Shown here: one piece after another, positions 2,999-42,395 of the stretch
How positions within the stretch are numbered: position 1 is the stretch's first letter
How the letters are laid out: each line of letters opens with the position of its first letter
Origin: a virus
Reading direction: 5' to 3' (one strand)
DNA: 64,000 bases
Virus record (IMG/VR): IMGVR_UViG_3300031949_000350
Span: 1-64,000 of that record
Notes under the pieces: generated by a model
What the model was told of the DNA's origin: nothing
Seen by the model: only the letters and a program-made list of their open reading frames with translations
Database searches by the model: none
Position numbers and translations under genes: made by a program

Positions 2999-3841
2999 AT
3001 GGCTAATATAAAGAAGCGGCTACACTTCAACACTAAAGCTAAGCAAAAGGATCAGTTCTATACTAATCCTGAGTTAGCTGCAAAGTTGGTAGACTTTACA
3101 GTGAGAGCACTACCAGTGGAACGGCGTGCTCTACTGTTGGAGCCGTCAGCGGGGACAGGAGCGTTTCTTGTTCCTATGAAGAAGCATGGCCGAGCTATCG
3201 GGTTGGATATTGACCCGAAGCACGGATGGGTAAAGGAAGGCAACTTTCTTGAGTCCTCATCGAAGGACTTCGGAGGGTTGAGAACGGATGAAGTGTGCGT
3301 AATCGGTAATCCTCCGTTTGGGTTCGCTGCCAACCTAGCTGTTCTTTTTTTCAACCACGCAGCTACCATGGCAGACACGATTGCGTTTATCGTGCCTCGA
3401 ACATTCCGAAAGGCTTCCGTTCATAACAAGCTGAACCTTAACTTTTGGCTATTTGATGATCAGGATGTAGGTAAGGACGCTTTTATTTTTCAGGATGAAG
3501 CATATGATGTGCCGTGTTGCTTCCAGATATGGGAGCGAAGAGACAGAAAGCGTGTGAAGGTAAAGCTTGAGGAGTCGCCTCTCTTTACTTTTACTACACC
3601 GGACGATGCTGATTTCGCTGTGCGTAGGGTTGGCGGCGGGGCCGGTAAGACGGTCGATGCGGATGGCACTAAGCCTCCTAGTCATCACTACATTAAGGCA
3701 AGCCATGGTGTGGTTGTAGCTAAGCTTAGAGCTATGATAGATGGGCTAAACTTTGACAAAGAGAAGAACGCTACTGCTGGGGTAAGGTCTATCTCAAAGC
3801 AGGAGTTTGTGGCTAAGACGAATAAGGAGATTCCGTCATGA
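2999..3841 (+). CDS. DNA amino-methyltransferase (N6-adenine/N4-cytosine)
   Basis: DQFYT, LEPSAGTG (SAM-binding motif I), GLDIDP and VIGNPPFG (catalytic motif IV). Confidence 0.9.
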   Translation: MANIKKRLHFNTKAKQKDQFYTNPELAAKLVDFTVRALPVERRALLLEPSAGTGAFLVPMKKHGRAIGLDIDPKHGWVKEGNFLESSSKDFGGLRTDEVCVIGNPPFGFAANLAVLFFNHAATMADTIAFIVPRTFRKASVHNKLNLNFWLFDDQDVGKDAFIFQDEAYDVPCCFQIWERRDRKRVKVKLEESPLFTFTTPDDADFAVRRVGGGAGKTVDADGTKPPSHHYIKASHGVVVAKLRAMIDGLNFDKEKNATAGVRSISKQEFVAKTNKEIPS

Positions 3842-8489: not shown

Positions 8490-8514
8490 GAAACGGTATT
8501 ATCTAATAGGAGCA
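8490..8514 (+). promoter_or_regulatory. Conserved phage promoter-like motif, copy 1
   Basis: GAAACGGTATTATCTAATAGGAGCA, identical to 22900-22924; intergenic. Confidence 0.75.
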
Positions 8515-16102: not shown

Positions 16103-16343
16103 CGCAGACTGGCAAGTTGAAGATTGGTACGTCGGTAAGTCCCTACCGCAGCGTACTGAGATTGATCTGGATAACTTCGCCGATGACATGACTGAGGAAG
16201 ACATCGAGGAAGAAGTGCTCAATCAGATTCAGAACGACTTCGTTGATCGGATCACTTGGGGCTGCTCTAATCTGGATGATGTAATCGCAGCGGTAAGTGC
16301 TGAACTAGACCGCCGCGCAGGAGAGAACGATGGGGACGAGTAA
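16080..16343 (+). CDS. Acidic hypothetical protein
   Basis: GGAGG RBS with GTG start; D/E-rich. Confidence 0.55.
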   Translation: MSYARKINADWQVEDWYVGKSLPQRTEIDLDNFADDMTEEDIEEEVLNQIQNDFVDRITWGCSNLDDVIAAVSAELDRRAGENDGDE

Positions 16344-17526
16344 TCACATTGATCTGTTCGGGGGCAGTGTCAAGTCTTGGACGAAGGGCGTCCCGCTTGA
16401 TCAGGTGACGATTGGGCAGGTGCTCGATACGTCTAAGCTTCCGTTCATCTTCAAGCACGTTGCCCTCATGCCCGATGCCCACCTTGGGATCGGTGCCACG
16501 GTTGGGTCCGTGGTGCCGACCAAGGGGGCGATCATCCCGGCTGCTGTTGGGGTGGACATTGGTTGCGGGATGGCCGCAGTCCAGCTTGACATGAACGCCG
16601 CTCAGTTGCCTGACAGCCTTGCAAAGCTCCGTCAGGCGATTGAGCGGCTCATCCCGGTCGGTCAGGGTAAGCATGAACATGTAGCTCCGGCTATGGCTAA
16701 CGCCTGGGAGCAGCATCTCCTCAGCCGCTACAAGCGGATCGAGGATCTCATGGGCAAGAAGCTGGAGAGGGCTGATCCGGTTCGGCAGCTTGCTACTCTC
16801 GGCGGAGGAAACCACTTCATCGAGATCTGCGTTGATGAGAGCGATAACGTGTGGCTTGTCCTTCACAGTGGATCGCGTGGTATCGGCAACAAGATCGGCA
16901 CGCACTTCATTGAGATCGCGAAGAAAGACATGCGGAAATGGATGATCAATCTCCCTGACAAGGACCTGTCCTACTTCCCTGAGGGGACTGATCATTACGA
17001 TAGCTACATGTTTGCTGTCAGGTGGGCGCAGGAGTATGCTGCAATCAACCGTGAGCTAATGATGAACTCGCTGGTCGTGATGCTTCAGTCTAAGTACGGA
17101 CCGCACTTCCAGCCTATCAAGGAGGTGATCAGTTGTCATCACAACTACGTCGATAGGGAGAACCACTTTGGGGAGAATGTATGGGTCACTCGAAAGGGTG
17201 CTGTTCGTGCTCGTGAAGGCGACCTCGGTATCATTCCCGGGTCGATGGGGACGAAGAGTTACATTGTTCGAGGTCGCGGTAACCCTCTCAGCTTCAATAG
17301 TTGCTCTCATGGCGCTGGACGTGTTCTAAGTCGTGGCAAGGCCAAGGCTACGTTCACCGTCGAGGATCATATCAAGGCGACCGAGGGTGTTGAGTGCCGA
17401 AAGGATGCTGGCGTACTTGACGAGACACCTGGGGCTTACAAGGACATTGACGCTGTAATGGCCGCACAGACGGACCTTGTTGAGATTGTTCATACGTTGC
17501 GTCAGGTTGTCTGTGTTAAAGGCTGA
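16330..17526 (+). CDS. rtcB: RtcB RNA-splicing/repair ligase
   Basis: MPDAHLG, VGVDIGCG, GGGNHF, HSGSRG, HHNY, PGSMG, HGAGR and YKDI motifs. Confidence 0.97.
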   Translation: MGTSNHIDLFGGSVKSWTKGVPLDQVTIGQVLDTSKLPFIFKHVALMPDAHLGIGATVGSVVPTKGAIIPAAVGVDIGCGMAAVQLDMNAAQLPDSLAKLRQAIERLIPVGQGKHEHVAPAMANAWEQHLLSRYKRIEDLMGKKLERADPVRQLATLGGGNHFIEICVDESDNVWLVLHSGSRGIGNKIGTHFIEIAKKDMRKWMINLPDKDLSYFPEGTDHYDSYMFAVRWAQEYAAINRELMMNSLVVMLQSKYGPHFQPIKEVISCHHNYVDRENHFGENVWVTRKGAVRAREGDLGIIPGSMGTKSYIVRGRGNPLSFNSCSHGAGRVLSRGKAKATFTVEDHIKATEGVECRKDAGVLDETPGAYKDIDAVMAAQTDLVEIVHTLRQVVCVKG

Positions 17527-18987: not shown

Positions 18988-19183
18988 AGATGCACATAGT
19001 ATGCTGCCGTTGCTTTAGAAGATTCCTAAGCTTTAGCAAAGACCCGATATATTGTCCTGGGCCGGCAAAACAGCATCGTGGAAAGAACGGAGAAGAAGAC
19101 TGCGGTAAAGCGGACTGTAAATCATGTTATGAATGTAGGCACGTCATCTGTGCTACTTGCATAGAAGTATATGGAGAATTCTA

Positions 19184-21805
19184 ATGGGTCAGTGTAACGG
19201 CAGTACGAATCCCCTTTGCCCGTTGGGTACGATGGGGTGCAATTATGTGGAGTTGCCGGGGAACTCCGCTGAGAACGTACTGCGCTCTCAGGCTGCAAGG
19301 AAAAAGGATTGCATCGATCTCCCGCCGCTGGCCCCCGGTCAGTATGATCTGATGATCATTGGCGGTAGTCCGTCGATGGACGACGATAATCGTGGCATTG
19401 TCTTCCAAGATAACGCTGGCGGTCTGATCCTCGACTTCCTTCAGAAAGCTGGTGCGGACCTGAACCGTACCTACATGACCCACATCACGAAGTGCCGGCC
19501 GAGGGCGAACCGAAAGCCTACCGTGCAGGAGATCAACATCTGCCGGGACGAGTATCTACAGAAGGAGATCGAGCTTATCCAGCCCAAAGTAGTAATGGTT
19601 GTTGGCGCTGTCGCCATTAGAGCGTTCAATCTGGGAGGAAACGGCGGCCTCAACACTATCCACGGCAGGGTGTTCGAGGAGAAGTTTGCTGGGTGGGAGG
19701 AGAGCCCTGAGTTCAAGGTGATCCCTACGATCAACCCGGCGGTCTTCTTCTTCAAGCCCAACGATAAGCTCAAGGCGCGCATCTGCAATGATTACCGGAT
19801 CGCAGTTGATGTAGTCAAAGGCAACGAGGCTACCGAGCACTTCATTCCCAAGGGCTGGCATCTGATCGACACGGAAGAGAAGCTGGATTGGCTGGCAGAG
19901 CAGATCGAAACTGTCGGCTATGTGGCGTGGGACACGGAGTCAGCTCACCTTGGGTTCCGCAAGGCTCCGCTACTGTGCTTCAGCTTCTCGTGGGGCTGGG
20001 ACGGTCACGAGTGCGCGGTGCTCCCTATTCTTCAGCACGACCCGAACGCTCCCGAGGAGAAGACCTATCACACGCAATCGGCTTTCGGGGCGCTGAACGA
20101 GGAAGCCGTCAAGCGGTTCCTGACTCGCGTGTTCACCAATCCGACGACGGCCAAGGCAGCGCATAACTACAAGTACGACTACAATGTCCTGCGCTACAAC
20201 TACGGCATCCAGTGTGCTGGCACGCTCTACGACACGATGGTGCTGGCACATCTGCTGGACGAGAATCAGTCGGTCGGTCTGGACTTCTGTGTTGATATTG
20301 AGTACGGCTGGGGTGACTATTCGGCTGCTGTACGGGCGATCACAGGGCACGGCAAGAAGCTCCGCGAGACTTACGACAAGGTGCCCAACGAAACCCTATG
20401 GCCTTACGCCGCAACCGACGCGCTGGGCACATCAAGACTGCTGCGTACCTACGTCGAACGGCTGAGATGCAAGTCCAATCTTTACAAGTTCTATCATGAG
20501 GAGACTGAGCCGCTGATTCGTCCGCTGGCGAAGGCTGAGTTCAAGGGCGCGCTGCTCGACCTCCCCGTGCTCAATGCGCTCAAGACCGAATACGAGGCGG
20601 ATCAGCTTCAACTTATCACGGATCTACGCTCCAAGACGTGGCCCGACTTCAATCCGATGAGCAATGATCAGGTGCTCAAAGCATTCCTCAACATTGGTGT
20701 CCCCTCAGTTGATCTGGAAGATGACTCGAACGCGAGCGGGTACAGCACCAACAAGAACACTCTGAACACACTGATCGAAAAGAGGGTCGAGCCGGCGGCC
20801 AGTCTCGCCTCGTGGATCATGTCCTATCGAAACAGACAGAAGCTCATCAGCACCTATTTGGTCAATGCGCTCAACGACATGGACGATGACGGGCGAGTGC
20901 GCTATACTTGGTTCCAAGCGGGACCGGTGACGGGGAGGCTGTCGTGCCGATTCTTCCATCAGATCCCCAAGATCGAAGAGGATCGCTTTCTGAACAATAA
21001 GCCGGTGATGCGCGGAATGCTCGTGGTCCCACCGGGGTATAAGTACATCTATGGCGACTTCAGTCAGGTTGAGCTTTGGATTCTGGCAATTCTGGCGAAG
21101 GACGAGGAGATGTACAACATTCTGAGCGGTGGCGGTGACCTTCACCGTGTCACGGCGTTCGAGTTCCTTCGCAGCGCGTGGCCCGGGCTAACTGAGGCAT
21201 TGATCAGCAAGAAGAACCGTACCGAAGTAGGTAAGCGAATCAACTTCGGCCTCGCCTACGGCTCCGAGGGCTTCTCGCTGGTGAATAGTGGTAAGTGGTT
21301 CGACGCAAACAACGTGGAGCGTAACTTTACTTGGGAGATGCTCAATCAGGGTATGGCCCGCTGGAAGAAGCGCTTCAAGGGGGTCGGTGAGTTCATCGAG
21401 TTCACTCCTGATCTCGTCCGTGGTAAGGGCTGTGTGGCGACCAACGTATTCGGCCGCGAGCGACGGTACGGCCCGGTACTCAACTCCTACAAGGATGGGG
21501 AGCGGAAGGCGGCCGAGCGGGAGTGCATCAACTTCTTCATTCAATCTGTAGCGTCCTGTCTGACTAACCGAACGATCATCGAGATGGACAAGATGCTGAC
21601 ACAGTACGAGGTGCCTGAGGGCGTGGTGTGTCTGATCAACACGGTCCACGACTCGATTGCCTATGAAGTTCGAGACTCCCATGTGGAGTGGTTCATTGAG
21701 GCGCTGAAACAGATCTCTGCGCGCCCCATCTACGAGCTTGACAACAACTGCTTCAAGTTCGACATCGGTATCGGACAAAGCTGGGCTGAGGCGGAAGGCG
21801 TATGA
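19184..21805 (+). CDS. Family A DNA polymerase with N-terminal UDG-like domain and 3'-5' exonuclease
   Basis: KCRP.NRKP...C (UDG family 4-like), DTE/HNYKYD/YAATD exonuclease motifs, TGRLS, DFSQVE, KRINFGLAYG, VHDS. Confidence 0.95.
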   Translation: MGQCNGSTNPLCPLGTMGCNYVELPGNSAENVLRSQAARKKDCIDLPPLAPGQYDLMIIGGSPSMDDDNRGIVFQDNAGGLILDFLQKAGADLNRTYMTHITKCRPRANRKPTVQEINICRDEYLQKEIELIQPKVVMVVGAVAIRAFNLGGNGGLNTIHGRVFEEKFAGWEESPEFKVIPTINPAVFFFKPNDKLKARICNDYRIAVDVVKGNEATEHFIPKGWHLIDTEEKLDWLAEQIETVGYVAWDTESAHLGFRKAPLLCFSFSWGWDGHECAVLPILQHDPNAPEEKTYHTQSAFGALNEEAVKRFLTRVFTNPTTAKAAHNYKYDYNVLRYNYGIQCAGTLYDTMVLAHLLDENQSVGLDFCVDIEYGWGDYSAAVRAITGHGKKLRETYDKVPNETLWPYAATDALGTSRLLRTYVERLRCKSNLYKFYHEETEPLIRPLAKAEFKGALLDLPVLNALKTEYEADQLQLITDLRSKTWPDFNPMSNDQVLKAFLNIGVPSVDLEDDSNASGYSTNKNTLNTLIEKRVEPAASLASWIMSYRNRQKLISTYLVNALNDMDDDGRVRYTWFQAGPVTGRLSCRFFHQIPKIEEDRFLNNKPVMRGMLVVPPGYKYIYGDFSQVELWILAILAKDEEMYNILSGGGDLHRVTAFEFLRSAWPGLTEALISKKNRTEVGKRINFGLAYGSEGFSLVNSGKWFDANNVERNFTWEMLNQGMARWKKRFKGVGEFIEFTPDLVRGKGCVATNVFGRERRYGPVLNSYKDGERKAAERECINFFIQSVASCLTNRTIIEMDKMLTQYEVPEGVVCLINTVHDSIAYEVRDSHVEWFIEALKQISARPIYELDNNCFKFDIGIGQSWAEAEGV

Positions 21806-39807: not shown

Positions 39808-40492
39808 CATGCACACAGGAGTCAAAGCCTCCGTTCTCGATCATGGTTATGTTCAACTCTACGACTACATGGGGGACGATCTGAGGATCGTGAACAACGC
39901 CCGGCAGTCATTCGGGCAGTCATCGGTCGAGTTCGGAGAGAAGGAAGAGGGGTTGATCAACTTCCTGATGAAGAACCGCCACGGCACTCCGTTCGAGGCT
40001 GTGGTATATCAGTTCAATGTGAAGTGCCCGATCTTCGTGGCCCGGGAGTGGTTCCGACATCGCATCGGTAGCTTCAATGAGTACAGCGGGCGCTACTCCA
40101 AGATGATCAATGAGTTCTACATACCCGAGAACGTTCGCACTCAGACTGGTAAGCCTGGAGCCTACAAGTTCGGTCCCATCGATGACGGGTCGGAGGCTTG
40201 GTTCAAGAGCGAGCTATATGCCTCTTGCGGCAATGCCTTCATCCTCTACGAAAATGCTCTGAAGGCCGGAGTCGCAAAGGAGCTTGCCAGACTCGTGCTT
40301 CCGGTGAATATCTACACACAGTTCACTTGGACTGTGAACCTTCGCTCCCTGCTCAACTTCGTCAGCCTACGCAGCGCTGAGAACGCCATGTACGAGATTC
40401 GGCGCTACTCGTTGACCATCGAGAACATGATCCACGAGACAGTGCCTTCGGCCTACAAGGCGTTCGTGGCAAATGGAGGTGAAGCACCGTGA
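39797..40492 (+). CDS. thyX: FAD-dependent thymidylate synthase
   Basis: HGTPFE, REWFRHR...NEYSGRY and NLRSLLNFVSLR motifs. Confidence 0.96.
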   Translation: MMPNMHTGVKASVLDHGYVQLYDYMGDDLRIVNNARQSFGQSSVEFGEKEEGLINFLMKNRHGTPFEAVVYQFNVKCPIFVAREWFRHRIGSFNEYSGRYSKMINEFYIPENVRTQTGKPGAYKFGPIDDGSEAWFKSELYASCGNAFILYENALKAGVAKELARLVLPVNIYTQFTWTVNLRSLLNFVSLRSAENAMYEIRRYSLTIENMIHETVPSAYKAFVANGGEAP

Positions 40493-40676
40493 TGGCATAC
40501 GATATCGTTCGAGTCATGCGTGATCTTACAGATGCGTGCAAGCAGTATGAGATTTCAGATCTCAACTGCTCTCGTATGCTCCCACAGCACGCAGAAGAAG
40601 TGATGCTGGAATTTGAGAGGTTTGTTAAACTGATCACCCAAATGCAGGGTGAAATTAAAGAAAGGAAATAGTACAC

Positions 40677-40895
40677 ATGACGAATGATGAAATTCTTAAT
40701 CGATTCACTTATCACAAAGCTAGCCCTGAGGGGACTGTTAAGCATCATGAGCTTTCCAGGTTATTCGTTGAGCTTGCCAGTCAAGTTGATCTGCTCTGCC
40801 CGGACGGGCGGGAGAAGTCGCTGACCTTCACGGCGCTTCAGGAGGCCAAGATGTGGGCGAGCGCGGCGGTTGCTTGCAACCCCAAGACGTGCTAG
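40677..40895 (+). CDS. Acb2/Tad1-like helical-hairpin protein (candidate anti-defence sponge)
   Basis: NRFTYH...CPDGREKSL..TALQEAKMWASAAVA. Confidence 0.6.
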   Translation: MTNDEILNRFTYHKASPEGTVKHHELSRLFVELASQVDLLCPDGREKSLTFTALQEAKMWASAAVACNPKTC

Positions 40896-40929
40896 TTAGT
40901 ATAAACTAGCCGGACGGCATCTTTCGACA

Positions 40930-40949
40930 GACGGTATTATCTAAGTAGA
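40930..40949 (+). promoter_or_regulatory. Conserved phage promoter-like motif, copy 4
   Basis: GACGGTATTATCTAAGTAGA, intergenic; preceded by a small inverted repeat at 40891-40910. Confidence 0.65.
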
Positions 40950-40991
40950 GGCGGTTTCAGTAGCAGGAGCTATTAAACAAAGGAGACGAAT

Positions 40992-41198
40992 ATGGCTAAT
41001 TTCACTGTTGGTGAGCGTGTGTTCATCGAGTCGGGAGTTCCGAAGCGGTATCTCGACCGTACCGGTGTGATCACTGGTACCGTTCCCCGCGGCCGTGGCG
41101 TTCAGTACACGGTTGCTTTTCCGGGTCGCCGCGTTCGCGATTTCCGGGTGTCTGGTGCTAACCTTACGCGAGCGATCAAACAGTATTTTGCCGCTTGA
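40992..41198 (+). CDS. Small basic KOW/SH3-like protein
   Basis: AAGGAG RBS; FTVGERVFIESG...YLDRTGVI KOW-like pattern; Arg-rich; ends in YFAA. Confidence 0.65.
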   Translation: MANFTVGERVFIESGVPKRYLDRTGVITGTVPRGRGVQYTVAFPGRRVRDFRVSGANLTRAIKQYFAA

Positions 41199-41199
41199 T

Positions 41200-41470
41200 T
41201 TAAAGTATAGGGAAAGCCGCCTTCAGGCTTGACTGGTAGGAGAGACTGCCACTTCTTGGCATAGGCCAAACAGCAACGGACCACCGGAAGGGAAACTGCT
41301 GGATCGTGTCCCGAAAGGGCCGCCTACTTAGAGCGCGCTGCGGAGCAGGACGACACTTACTGAACTTACACGGTCTGGTCTATGCCAAGAAGTGGTTGGG
41401 TAAAGCAATGCCAACACGCGGGTTTCAATGGCGTTTCGAGTAGCAACGCAAATTCCCAGGCTACCGAACA
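41200..41470 (+). ncRNA. Unidentified structured ncRNA
   Basis: 21-bp stem 41248-41268/41376-41396 with two G-U pairs, a GAAA-tetraloop hairpin at 41308-41320 and several further hairpins, in a 300-nt gap. Confidence 0.6.
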
Positions 41471-41496
41471 CTTCTAATTTCAAAGGGAGGATCAAT

Positions 41497-42072
41497 ATGA
41501 TTCGTAGTGGACTCAAGATTGGCTTCATGGGTGCGGGTGGTACTGGCAAGACGACCACTGCGAAGGTGGTAAGCGAGACTCTCAACGTACCGACCATCAA
41601 GTCAGCGAGCCGGGCTGTCTATGAACAGGACAATCTCTCTGAAGAGAAGTGCATGGCTCTTGATAATGTGGGCAAATACGAACTTCAGTTCCGCATCTTC
41701 GGGATGAAGACAGAGCTTGATAAGCAGACTTTCGCGTTTGTGGCAGACCGCACACTCCTTGATCATTGGGCGTACTGCCTGATGTACTGCGGGTCATTTA
41801 TCCCAAATGATGAATACACCCAGTTTGAAGAGAACGTGCGCGTTCATATGCGCTCAACCTACACTCATCTCTTCTACTTCCCCTTCGGCTACTGGTTCCC
41901 TGAGAAGGGCGATGGTGTGCGACAGGATCATTACTCGTGGCAGAGCGCCATCGACGCGATCATTCTCGGCTACATTCACCGTTGGCGGCTACCAGTGACG
42001 GAAGTGAAGCAGAATAGCGGGGCGCTCGCGCGAAACGAGTTCGTTCTGAACACGATTCGGAGGACCATGTGA
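41497..42072 (+). CDS. P-loop kinase (NadR/AAA_28 or dNMP-kinase-like)
   Basis: GAGGTGKTT, ADRTLLD..AY and DGVR motifs; GGAGG RBS. Confidence 0.8.
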   Translation: MIRSGLKIGFMGAGGTGKTTTAKVVSETLNVPTIKSASRAVYEQDNLSEEKCMALDNVGKYELQFRIFGMKTELDKQTFAFVADRTLLDHWAYCLMYCGSFIPNDEYTQFEENVRVHMRSTYTHLFYFPFGYWFPEKGDGVRQDHYSWQSAIDAIILGYIHRWRLPVTEVKQNSGALARNEFVLNTIRRTM

Positions 42073-42395
42073 AAAGGCTATTGGCAGTCTGCTTACTCTG
42101 CCTGCTTAGCACAGGCTGTAGCACCGGCTACCAGAAGACTATCCTTCTCAGTGAGAACGATGCGGAAGAATGCAAGCCCCAGTTCTACCGAAGTGCCCGT
42201 AAGTATGTCCACATCAACTTATACAGCAGGAAGAGCCTATTGATCGGAGTCCATGAGTTCCCTGTCTGGCTTGAGCTTGGGCGAATCGTGAGAGGGGCTA
42301 GCGTCCCTACCAATCGTGATAGATTCCTCGGAGAGAAGCCCAAGAAGATGTGGGGAGCCAAGATCGTCATCCCCTACAAGGAGCCTACGCTATGA
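42069..42395 (+). CDS. Putative lipoprotein
   Basis: MKRLLAVCLLCLLSTGC lipobox-like signal. Confidence 0.55.
   Translation: MKRLLAVCLLCLLSTGCSTGYQKTILLSENDAEECKPQFYRSARKYVHINLYSRKSLLIGVHEFPVWLELGRIVRGASVPTNRDRFLGEKPKKMWGAKIVIPYKEPTL

What the first reader, a model, noticed from the sequence alone, without database searches (positions are those of the whole stretch)
40930..41470. Promoter, small KOW-like protein and ~270-nt structured RNA: candidate undescribed phage RNP module
Seen: a copy of the conserved promoter motif precedes a 68-aa Arg-rich protein with a KOW/SH3-like start. A 300-nt gap follows, which is unusual here because most genes overlap or abut. The gap holds a 21-bp stem (41248-41268/41376-41396) whose only non-Watson-Crick pairs are G-U, which suggests selection at the RNA level. 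It encloses about 107 nt including a GAAA-tetraloop hairpin, with further hairpins at 41214-41230, about 41395-41415 and GCGTT...AACGC, and a possible closing pair GGTAG/CTACC. Known: KOW domains often bind RNA. Inference: protein and RNA form a complex, for example a 6S-like decoy that sequesters host sigma70 holoenzyme in favour of the phage sigma, an RNase III-processed sRNA, or a decoy for a defence system. I could not match it to tRNA, tmRNA, SRP, RNase P or a riboswitch.
Basis: partly seen in the sequence, partly recalled or inferred. Interest (0 to 1): 0.8.

Follow-up and report, generated by a model that had tools for sequence, protein, structure and literature searches.

The report
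Phage folded RNA with clamp stem
The gap behind a small phage gene holds a real, evolutionarily maintained folded RNA, made of a widespread but uncatalogued phage RNA module plus a long stem peculiar to this phage lineage; what it does is still untested.

Summary
The 21-bp stem is exact, and two G-U pairs are its only non-Watson-Crick pairs.

Three related metagenomic phages keep the stem through compensatory and G-U changes that work only on the + strand. It is therefore an RNA structure.

The RNA has two layers:
- **Module (41209-41250).** This is a copy of a small two-hairpin module: a GGRAA bulge, a covarying hairpin, UGAC, then a covarying hairpin with an invariant GAGAGA loop. I found it in about 45 other phage and prophage loci from many phyla. 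It is usually present once per genome, sometimes directly before a tRNA, and it is absent from Rfam 15. Earlier notes of this scan describe the same module on other DNA.
- **Long stem and interior (41248-41396).** These occur only in this lineage. In two relatives the 3' arm contains the next gene's ribosome-binding site.

The last 100 nt are not conserved.

The small protein accompanies the RNA in 4 of 4 lineage loci, and both are missing from a fifth relative. However, 45 of 49 module-bearing sources lack the protein.

I read the element as a cis-acting processing or translation-control element. The RNP and 6S readings are weak. Its function is unproven.

The parts
40931..40947 (+). Copy of the window's repeated promoter-like motif (ACGGTATTATCTA..), 45-60 nt before the small gene's start
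   Evidence: 4 exact copies at 8493, 22903, 38455 and 40931, all on the + strand and upstream of start codons. 0 of 100 shuffles reach the 7 matches seen. Promoter function is inferred.
40992..41198 (+). 68-aa Arg-rich protein, predicted small SH3-like beta-barrel
   Evidence: ORF. Five close relatives among 5.8 billion proteins. A profile finds 24 representatives at E<=0.001, mostly 60-75 aa. AlphaFold pLDDT 76.3 with five strands. No Pfam or PHROG family at E<=0.1. Profile against PDB: eL21 E 0.008, uL24 E 0.15.
41209..41250 (+). Widespread two-hairpin module. Bulge GGGAA 41210-41214. P1 AGCC 41215-41218 / GGCU 41226-41229. Junction UGAC 41230-41233. P2 GGUAG 41235-41239 / CUGCC 41246-41250, with loop GAGAGA 41240-41245.
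   Evidence: Model R2 scores 61.8 bits, E 4.8e-12, at 41203-41256. Covariation over 25 distinct rows: 86.6% of cells paired against 72.9% shuffled, 37 double changes against 11.7, 0 of 500 shuffles.
41248..41268 (+). 5' arm of the long stem P3. Its pyrimidine start (CUUCUU) is also the module's 3' tail.
   Evidence: Kept in L002, L003 and L004 with compensatory changes.
41269..41375 (+). Branched interior. P4 41271-41275/41297-41301. P5 41302-41309/41368-41375. P6 CCC-GAAA-GGG 41310-41319.
   Evidence: P4, P5 and P6 each have pairs changed on both sides among window, L002 and L004. The interior of L003 is different.
41376..41396 (+). 3' arm of P3, purine-rich (AAGAAGUGG). In L003 and L004 the matching arm contains the Shine-Dalgarno sequence of the next gene.
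41397..41496 (+). Spacer that is not conserved. It holds two local hairpins and the ATPase gene's Shine-Dalgarno sequence (GGGAGGA).
   Evidence: No counterpart in L003 or L004.
41497..42072 (+). Downstream AAA_28-type P-loop NTPase gene
   Evidence: Pfam PF13521, E 4.3e-13. 62-67% identical in L002-L004.

Best explanation
The gap encodes a + strand, cis-acting RNA element. It sits at the junction between the small-protein cistron and the downstream ATPase and glycan-synthesis genes, and it is transcribed from the motif at 40931.

The element is composite:
- Its 5' end is one copy of a widespread, uncatalogued phage RNA module. The module is a hairpin with a GGRAA bulge, then UGAC, then a hairpin capped by GAGAGA, then a pyrimidine tail.
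- In this lineage the tail is extended into a helix of about 21 bp that clamps a variable, branched domain of about 107 nt.

My proposed mechanism is as follows. The helix masks or positions the start region of the next cistron; in L003 and L004 its 3' arm holds that cistron's ribosome-binding site. Being two turns of near-perfect duplex, the helix is also a likely host RNase III site. Cleavage there would separate the upstream and downstream messages and leave the module at the 3' end of the small-protein mRNA.

The SH3-like protein is a lineage-specific companion that may bind this RNA, but the module does not require it.

Shown: the structure, its strand, the two-layer make-up, the module's spread, and the linkage within the lineage. 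Inferred: transcription, RNase III cleavage, control of translation, and any protein binding.
For: Stem and strand:
- Exact 21-bp stem with two G-U pairs.
- Arms pair in all four lineage members: duplex energies -40.5, -32.1, -28.4 and -17.9 kcal/mol.
- Changes such as C-G to A-U, G-U to G-C to A-U, and five G-U pairs in L003 would be mismatches on the - strand.
- On the MAFFT alignment A5, 84.6% of cells pair, against 78.3% in shuffles and 35-46% when partners are slid. 12 pairs change on both sides, against a mean of 5.0; 0 of 500 shuffles reach this. RNAalifold finds 13 of 38 pairs with compensatory change.

Link to the next gene: in L003 the 3' arm ends GAGGGAG five nt before the ATPase ATG. 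In L004 it runs into AGGAGGAG before a small ORF.

Composite nature:
- The module is found by patterns and by model R2 in viral contigs (27 hits) and in 11 places in genome contigs of many phyla, with strong covariation.
- With the loop left free in the search pattern, 18 of the 27 matches with a fully paired P2 have GAGAGA.
- There is one strong copy in each of 5 of 5 viral records, one of which also holds a weak second match (21.6 bits). The window's own genome has one + strand copy plus a weak - strand match over the same stem.
- The long stem is restricted to this lineage. Only the window, L002 and L004 stand out among the 41 instances tested. L003 was not in that set and has a bulged version.

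Linkage: the small protein and the RNA are present together in 4 of 4 lineage loci and both absent in L010.
Against: - No transcript data exist: no RNA run holds this DNA (see Tried and rejected).
- In the window itself and in L002 the next gene's ribosome-binding site lies 70-100 nt beyond the stem, so masking cannot be the stem's role there.
- RNase III cleavage is inferred from helix length alone, and the L003 helix is broken by a 6-nt bulge.
- The module's function is unknown, so the role of half the element is unexplained.
- A stem that clamps a folded domain also fits a stable, excised, trans-acting RNA.
- Only four lineage sequences exist, and two of them (L003, L004) are close in the 5' part.
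- The single-sequence fold z-scores are modest.
Confidence: 0.45

Rival explanations
1. A free-standing, stable, trans-acting non-coding RNA. The long stem zips the ends of a folded domain, and host RNases such as RNase III release it from the operon transcript. It then acts on a host or phage target as a decoy, sponge or guide.
For: An end-to-end helix closing a branched interior is typical of stable RNAs. The interior helices P4-P6 are kept, with double changes, in the window, L002 and L004. In the window and L002 the stem is not next to a start codon. In other phages the module sits inside tRNA arrays, where RNAs are cut out of precursors (L022).
Against: The interior differs greatly in L003, which argues against a conserved trans-acting surface. 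No target complementarity was sought or found. There are no expression data.
Confidence: 0.2
2. One reading: the 68-aa SH3-like protein and the RNA form a dedicated ribonucleoprotein, for example a 6S-like decoy of host RNA polymerase or a defence decoy.
For: Protein and RNA are adjacent in 4 of 4 lineage loci and both missing in L010. The fold resembles RNA-binding SH3-like barrels: eL21 E 0.008 by profile; KOW6-7 Z 7.5; eL21 Z 6.7. The protein is Arg-rich.
Against: - 45 of 49 module-bearing sources have no relative of the protein within the DNA held (median 7.9 kb).
- The fold matches are in the range the tool calls a common arrangement (best Z 7.9; no Foldseek hit at E<=0.001).
- There is no Pfam KOW or L21e match at E<=0.1.
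- There is no 6S match in Rfam and no 6S-like rod with a central bubble.
- Adjacency in one small lineage can simply be shared descent.
Confidence: 0.15
3. The GAGAGA module is itself the active part: a self-contained RNA device. It could be a self-cleaving ribozyme or a knot that marks or protects RNA ends. It could also be a nascent-RNA element that acts on RNA polymerase, as HK022 put does. On this view the long stem is only a local add-on.
For: - The unpaired nucleotides (GGRAA, UGAC, GAGAGA) are nearly invariant while the stems covary freely.
- The module occurs about once per genome.
- It is found in phages assigned to many phyla, which suggests independence from any one host factor.
- It lies 6-19 nt before a same-strand tRNA in 6 of 43 distinct instances.
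- The tail can pair with the bulge in 15 of 24 instances, against 4 of 24 for a control window.
Against: - No match to any ribozyme family of Rfam 15, even at E<=10 on short stretches.
- Model R2 finds nothing at the put sites of HK022.
- No conserved cleavage site was identified.
- The bulge-tail pairing cannot be told apart from a plain U/C-rich tract.
- There is no biochemical test.
Confidence: 0.15
4. A DNA-level element, such as a replication origin, a recombination or packaging site, or the scar of a mobile element with terminal inverted repeats, and not an RNA.
For: The inverted repeat is long. An HNH gene (L002) and extra partial module copies (L002, L004) lie beside it, which suggests a recombination-prone spot.
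Against: G-U and U-G pairs are tolerated on the + strand only: five in L003, others in the window and L004, and in P2 of several phages. All copies examined share the orientation of the neighbouring genes. Stems covary while loops stay fixed.
Confidence: 0.05

Closest known systems
RNase III processing sites of T7-like phages and lambda (R0.3-R18.5, the N leader, sib); recalled from textbook knowledge, not from a call
   Same: These are intergenic, + strand helices of about two turns inside polycistronic phage transcripts. They separate messages, stabilise the upstream 3' end, or unmask a downstream start.
   Different: Those sites are simple hairpins of about 50-60 nt with an internal loop. 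This element is a 21-bp stem closing a 107-nt branched domain, preceded by a conserved two-hairpin module. Cleavage here is not shown.
HK022 put RNAs (putL, putR): passages of PMC9378689 read
   Same: A phage RNA of about 60-70 nt made of two stem-loops, acting without a phage protein and lying in early operons.
   Different: Model R2 has no hit at the put regions of HK022; the best hits elsewhere have E 0.29 and 0.69. put is known from lambdoid phages only: ten sequences were aligned in that paper. This module is found in phages of many phyla and before tRNAs.
Uncatalogued 'GAGAGA / pseudoknot' phage RNA module noted earlier in this scan (e1-5802752, e1-5781944, e1-5873756, e1-5963372, e1-6033714, e1-3431241); AI notes, unpublished
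   Same: A GAGAGA-capped hairpin next to a conserved small fold. It is widespread in phages of many phyla, usually present once per genome, lies just before a gene or a tRNA, and is absent from Rfam. I derived the same features here before reading those notes.
   Different: Here the module's tail is fused to a lineage-specific 21-bp clamp and sits beside a dedicated small protein gene. The notes' claim that phage P1 carries the module was not reproduced with my model or patterns.
SH3-like RNA-binding barrels: ribosomal proteins eL21 and uL24, and KOW domains of NusG/Spt5
   Same: A five-stranded small barrel. The profile of the family aligns to eL21 over residues 3-47 (E 0.008) and to the C-terminal part of uL24 (E 0.15). 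VIA Z is 7.5 to KOW6-7 and 6.7 to eL21.
   Different: No Pfam family at E<=0.1. The structural scores are in the range given by unrelated small barrels: PWWP and Tudor score as high. No ribosomal context.

Membership tests
Any Rfam 15 family (6S RNA, riboswitches, ribozymes, tRNA, tmRNA, Y RNA and others) | Covariance-model match at the family's gathering score | tested here: not met
   0 matches in the 64-kb window. In 40850-41550 at E<=10 there were only three chance-level rows. Module copies L027 and L004 gave nothing relevant at E<=10. Loci holding other copies gave only tRNA and tmRNA. ARAGORN found none in the window.
6S RNA | A rod of about 180 nt: two long irregular helices around a large central bubble that mimics an open promoter (recalled definition) | tested here: not met
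   The fold is one 21-bp stem closing a three-helix branched interior. No RF00013 match.
RNase III substrate | About 20 bp or more of near-continuous double-stranded RNA | tested here: met
   21 bp with two G-U pairs in the window. 19-20 bp in L002 and L004. 10+10 bp with a 6-nt bulge in L003.
RNase III substrate | Cleavage by RNase III in vivo or in vitro | not testable with these tools
   No RNA reads were available. An enzyme assay is needed.
GAGAGA two-hairpin phage module (unnamed, from this scan) | GGRAA bulge, covarying P1, UGAC junction, and a 4-5 bp covarying P2 with a GAGAGA loop | tested here: met
   R2 gives 61.8 bits, E 4.8e-12, at 41203-41256. All elements can be read. The window has UAGGGAA where most copies have CAGGRAA.
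HK022 put RNA | Sequence and structure likeness to putL or putR | tested here: not met
   R2 against the whole HK022 genome with filters off: no hit in the immunity region, best E 0.29 elsewhere. The reverse test, a put model against the window, was not possible: I did not check whether Rfam holds a put model, and I built none.
KOW domain (Pfam PF00467) / Ribosomal_L21e (PF01157) | Profile match at or near the curated threshold | tested here: not met
   No Pfam family at E<=0.1 for the 68-aa protein.
SH3-like small beta-barrel fold | Five-stranded barrel with structural likeness to known members | tested here: inconclusive
   pLDDT 76.3, strands at 9-12, 27-35, 38-42, 51-54 and 58-60. Foldseek best E 0.088. 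VIA best Z 7.9, with 158 chains at Z>=5. The tool warns that Z under 8 may be only a common arrangement.
Intrinsic terminator | G+C-rich hairpin followed by a T run | tested here: not met
   0 terminator-like sites in 40400-42200. In some other phages P2 is followed by a U run (L016, L027, L007), but copies inside tRNA arrays must be read through.

The most novel reading that the evidence does not exclude
The GAGAGA module is a new class of self-contained functional RNA. It could be a small self-cleaving ribozyme, an RNA knot that blocks nucleases or marks RNA ends, or an element that acts on RNA polymerase or the ribosome. Phages of many phyla carry it about once per genome. In this lineage it has been coupled to a 21-bp clamp and to a dedicated SH3-like RNA-binding protein, which would make it a protein-tuned version of that device.
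Probability: 0.2. Interest if true: 0.85.

Novelty: new variant of a known kind. Interest (0 to 1): 0.6.

Why it matters
Phage transcripts are punctuated by RNA structures that decide which messages survive and get translated, and only a few kinds have been worked out. This element shows one small module reused across very different phages. Its unpaired nucleotides are almost invariant, it matches no RNA family in Rfam 15, and here it is built into a larger lineage-specific structure beside a candidate RNA-binding protein.

If the module proves to be a ribozyme, a nuclease block or a polymerase-directed element, it would be a new and very widespread tool of phage gene expression. It would also be a compact part for synthetic biology. 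If it is only a processing or stability hairpin, the finding is still a well-supported new RNA family worth adding to Rfam.

Tried and rejected
Expression. The look-up of sequencing runs listed no RNA holder. It listed four soil-metagenome DNA runs from four studies, one of which may be the source of this DNA. Read laying gave only contigs identical to the window over the RNA, so it added no variation and no ends.

Relatives of the small protein:
- Viral contigs gave none.
- Genome contigs gave none.
- Metagenome contigs gave four loci. I dropped L005 as spurious: it is a 30-residue match in unrelated high-GC DNA.
Their RNA context is unknown.
- BLAST of the region and of a module copy against cultured phages found no match.

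First pattern scan: 3 of 4 hits (L006, L008, L009) were AT-rich coding matches and were dropped. In later scans I dropped L015, L026 and L028 as doubtful. Most of the 119 or more rows of the loose scan are chance matches: 88 of 115 lack a fully paired P2.

Phage P1. Earlier notes say P1 carries the module. R2 found nothing at E<=1. One pattern hit lies inside the portal gene. A stricter pattern found nothing. The claim was not reproduced, but my model may be too narrow.

HK022 put: no R2 hit at the put regions.

Other readings considered:
- Hidden ORFs in the gap. The + and - strand ORFs of 31-60 aa are not kept in relatives, and the alignments have indels that are not multiples of three.
- Group I intron or homing element. 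The HNH gene in L002 is free-standing, and nothing follows it before the ATPase gene.
- Repeated promoter or terminator. The module occurs only once in this genome.
- SD masking by the module's tail as a general rule. In L027 and L029 the SD follows directly and is unpaired. A long downstream partner for the tail exists only in this lineage.
- Open-frame test of module copies. 11 of 42 copies lie in a long same-strand open frame and 12 of 42 in a long opposite-strand one. This is too noisy in GC-rich DNA to use.
- Bulge-tail pseudoknot. The result is suggestive only. My regular expression picked a neighbouring G-run instead of the true bulge in at least L013 and L024.

Literature. Two full-text searches and passages of PMC9378689 and PMC10690425 gave no description of this motif.

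Complex prediction was not used, because it does not take RNA.

Full report
**What is there.** The window is part of a 79.5-kb IMG/VR virus record, estimated 66% complete. Around the finding, all on the + strand, lie:
- a ThyX gene;
- a 72-aa Acb2/Tad1-hairpin protein gene (Pfam PF24729, E 1e-14);
- the 68-aa ORF at 40992-41198;
- a 298-nt gap;
- an AAA_28 NTPase gene (41497-42072);
- a 1039-aa glycosyltransferase gene.

The motif ACGGTATTAT at 40931 is one of four exact + strand copies. Each lies upstream of a start codon, and they share ACGGTATTATCTA. Counting one-mismatch copies gives 7 matches, and 0 of 100 shuffles give as many. No sigma-70-type promoter or intrinsic terminator is predicted on the + strand nearby.

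**The stem.** From the sequence, 41248-41268 pairs with 41376-41396 over 21 bp. The repeat finder reports the overlapping 23-nt arms. The single-sequence fold is only modestly better than shuffles: z -1.83 on the + strand and -2.40 on the - strand. One sequence alone would therefore not establish a structure.

**Relatives.** The small protein is rare. It has five close relatives among 5.8 billion proteins. It has none in viral or genome contigs. It has three usable loci in JGI metagenomes (L002, L003, L004). A fourth locus, L005, I judged spurious.

All three loci keep the same gene order: an Acb2-like gene, a secreted Gly-rich protein, the small protein, a gap, the ATPase and the large glycosyltransferase. 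L002 has an HNH gene, and L004 a small membrane ORF, inserted between the gap and the ATPase gene.

A fifth relative, L010, was found through the ATPase. It has ThyX, the secreted protein, the ATPase and the glycosyltransferase, but neither the small protein nor the RNA (no R2 hit).

**Structure is selected, on the + strand.**
- The arms pair in all four loci.
- Position by position the stem shows C-G to A-U, then G-U to G-C to A-U, then A-U to U-A to U-G.
- L003 keeps a 10+10-bp stem with a 6-nt bulge and five G-U pairs. These would be C-A mismatches on the other strand.
- On the unfitted MAFFT alignment A5, 84.6% of cells pair, against 78.3% in shuffles and 35-46% when partners are slid.
- 12 of 44 pairs change on both sides, against a mean of 5.0; 0 of 500 shuffles reach this.
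- RNAalifold agrees: 13 of 38 pairs show compensatory change.
- Interior helices P4, P5 and the GNRA-capped P6 are kept in the window, L002 and L004. The interior of L003 is largely different.
- The last 100 nt of the window's gap have no counterpart in L003 or L004.

**The turn: the 5' part is a widespread module.** The invariant stretch just before the stem (GGYAG-GAGAGA-CURCC, preceded by UGAC and a hairpin) was used as a search pattern. It recurred in unrelated phages:
- viral contigs: 7 and 18 stretches;
- genome contigs: 12 stretches, labelled Verrucomicrobiota, Pseudomonadota, Acidobacteriota, Planctomycetota, Bacteroidota, Actinomycetota and Bacillota.

A 60-position covariance model, R2, built from seven copies, gave 27 hits at E<=1 in the viral loci. 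It gave 11 hits at E<=0.1 in the genome loci.

Over 25 distinct rows, 86.6% of cells pair (72.9% shuffled; 26-41% slid), and 37 cells show double changes against 11.7. No shuffle out of 500 reaches the observed values. That alignment is fitted to the model, and my patterns fixed the loop and the junction. The 3' strand of P2, however, was in no pattern.

I then left the loop free. Of the 27 matches with a fully paired P2, 18 had exactly GAGAGA, and the other nine loops included no sequence seen more than twice. The loop is therefore truly conserved.

The module occurs as one strong copy in each of 5 of 5 viral records searched whole. One of these also holds a weak second match of 21.6 bits. 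The window's own genome has one + strand copy, plus a weak - strand match over the same stem. A same-strand tRNA starts 6-19 nt after P2 in 6 of 43 distinct copies, and one copy lies between two tRNAs of a 360-kb phage.

No Rfam 15 family matches any copy tested. Notes from earlier sessions of this scan describe what is evidently the same module on other DNA. I read them only after deriving it.

**How the two layers join.** The module's pyrimidine tail (CUUCUU) is the start of the long stem's 5' arm. A strong downstream partner for the tail exists only in this lineage: 3 of 41 copies tested, namely the window, L002 and L004. L003 was not in that set.

In L003 and L004 the purine-rich 3' arm contains the Shine-Dalgarno sequence of the next gene. 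In the window and L002, insertions have moved the next start 70-100 nt away.

The tail can also pair with the GGRAA bulge: 15 of 24 copies, against 4 of 24 for a control window. This would compete with the stem, but the test cannot separate it from a plain U/C-rich tract.

Partial second module copies lie before the small gene in L004 (28.7 bits) and before the HNH gene in L002 (22 bits).

**The protein.**
- There is no Pfam or PHROG family at E<=0.1.
- A profile search finds 24 representatives at E<=0.001, most of them 60-75 aa, sharing the core P.RY.GRTG...GRG.QY.V.FPGRR.
- The AlphaFold model (pLDDT 76.3) is a five-stranded small barrel.
- Foldseek has no match at E<=0.001; the top rows are PWWP and eL21.
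- VIA gives Z 7.9 (PWWP), 7.5 (KOW6-7) and 6.7 (eL21), a range the tool calls possibly a common arrangement.
- The family profile aligns to eL21 at E 0.008 and to uL24 at E 0.15.

'SH3/KOW-like' is therefore reasonable as a fold. It is not a family assignment, and RNA binding is only a guess.

Relatives of the protein occur in only 4 of 49 module-bearing sources, all of this lineage (median DNA held 7.9 kb).

**Reading.** The RNA is real and composite. I favour a cis-acting junction element with confidence 0.45. On this reading the clamp helix is a processing site (probably for RNase III) and, where it abuts a start, a mask. The module is left at the 3' end of the upstream message.

The rivals are:
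- an excised trans-acting RNA (0.2);
- a self-contained active module such as a ribozyme, an end-protecting knot or a polymerase-directed element (0.15);
- a DNA-level element (0.05).

The 6S idea fails on architecture and on Rfam. HK022 put is the nearest published analogue of the module in form, but R2 does not find it.

I found no published description in two searches and two papers read in passages. The closed supplements of PMC10690425 might list it.

Noticed in passing
window 40677-40895: 72-aa protein with the Acb2/Tad1 hairpin domain (Pfam PF24729, E 1e-14; phrog_1454, E 2.4e-20). It is a candidate sponge for immune signalling nucleotides and lies directly upstream of the finding. It is conserved in L002 and L003.
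   Followed up: partly
window 16330-17526: Phage-encoded RtcB RNA ligase (Pfam PF01139, E 7e-128). By eye, L002 (1271-1660) and L003 (778-1260) also carry a GGQ-motif release-factor-like ORF upstream of the Acb2-like gene. That ORF was not scanned against any family library. Together they hint at RNA or ribosome repair functions.
   Followed up: no
window 19157-21805: 882-aa protein that joins a uracil-DNA glycosylase superfamily domain to the 3'-5' exonuclease and polymerase domains of a family A DNA polymerase.
   Followed up: no
L004 333-397 and L002 2945-3005: Second, weaker copies of the GAGAGA module lie just before the small-protein gene (L004) and just before an inserted HNH gene (L002). 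In the L002 copy the GGAGAGA loop serves as the HNH gene's Shine-Dalgarno sequence. The module may mark sites where cassettes are inserted.
   Followed up: partly
L007 5372-5470 (- strand): An unrelated phage has the P2 hairpin followed by CACUUUUUCU. This can pair with the AGGAGGAAGU ribosome-binding site of a small gene lying before an SSB gene. It looks like a miniature of the window's clamp.
   Followed up: partly
L022 2600-3700: tRNA array of a 360-kb phage with a module copy exactly between tRNA-Arg and tRNA-His. ARAGORN also calls a tRNA with a four-base anticodon (ctta) at 3255-3330.
   Followed up: no
L031 2821-3206: A 163-kb phage record carries a tmRNA gene (Rfam RF00023, 73.8 bits) as well as a module copy.
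   Followed up: no
window 40600-42100: Pieces identical to this stretch occur in contigs of soil-metagenome runs from other studies (X2, X3). The phage, or a near-identical one, therefore recurs in soils.
   Followed up: partly
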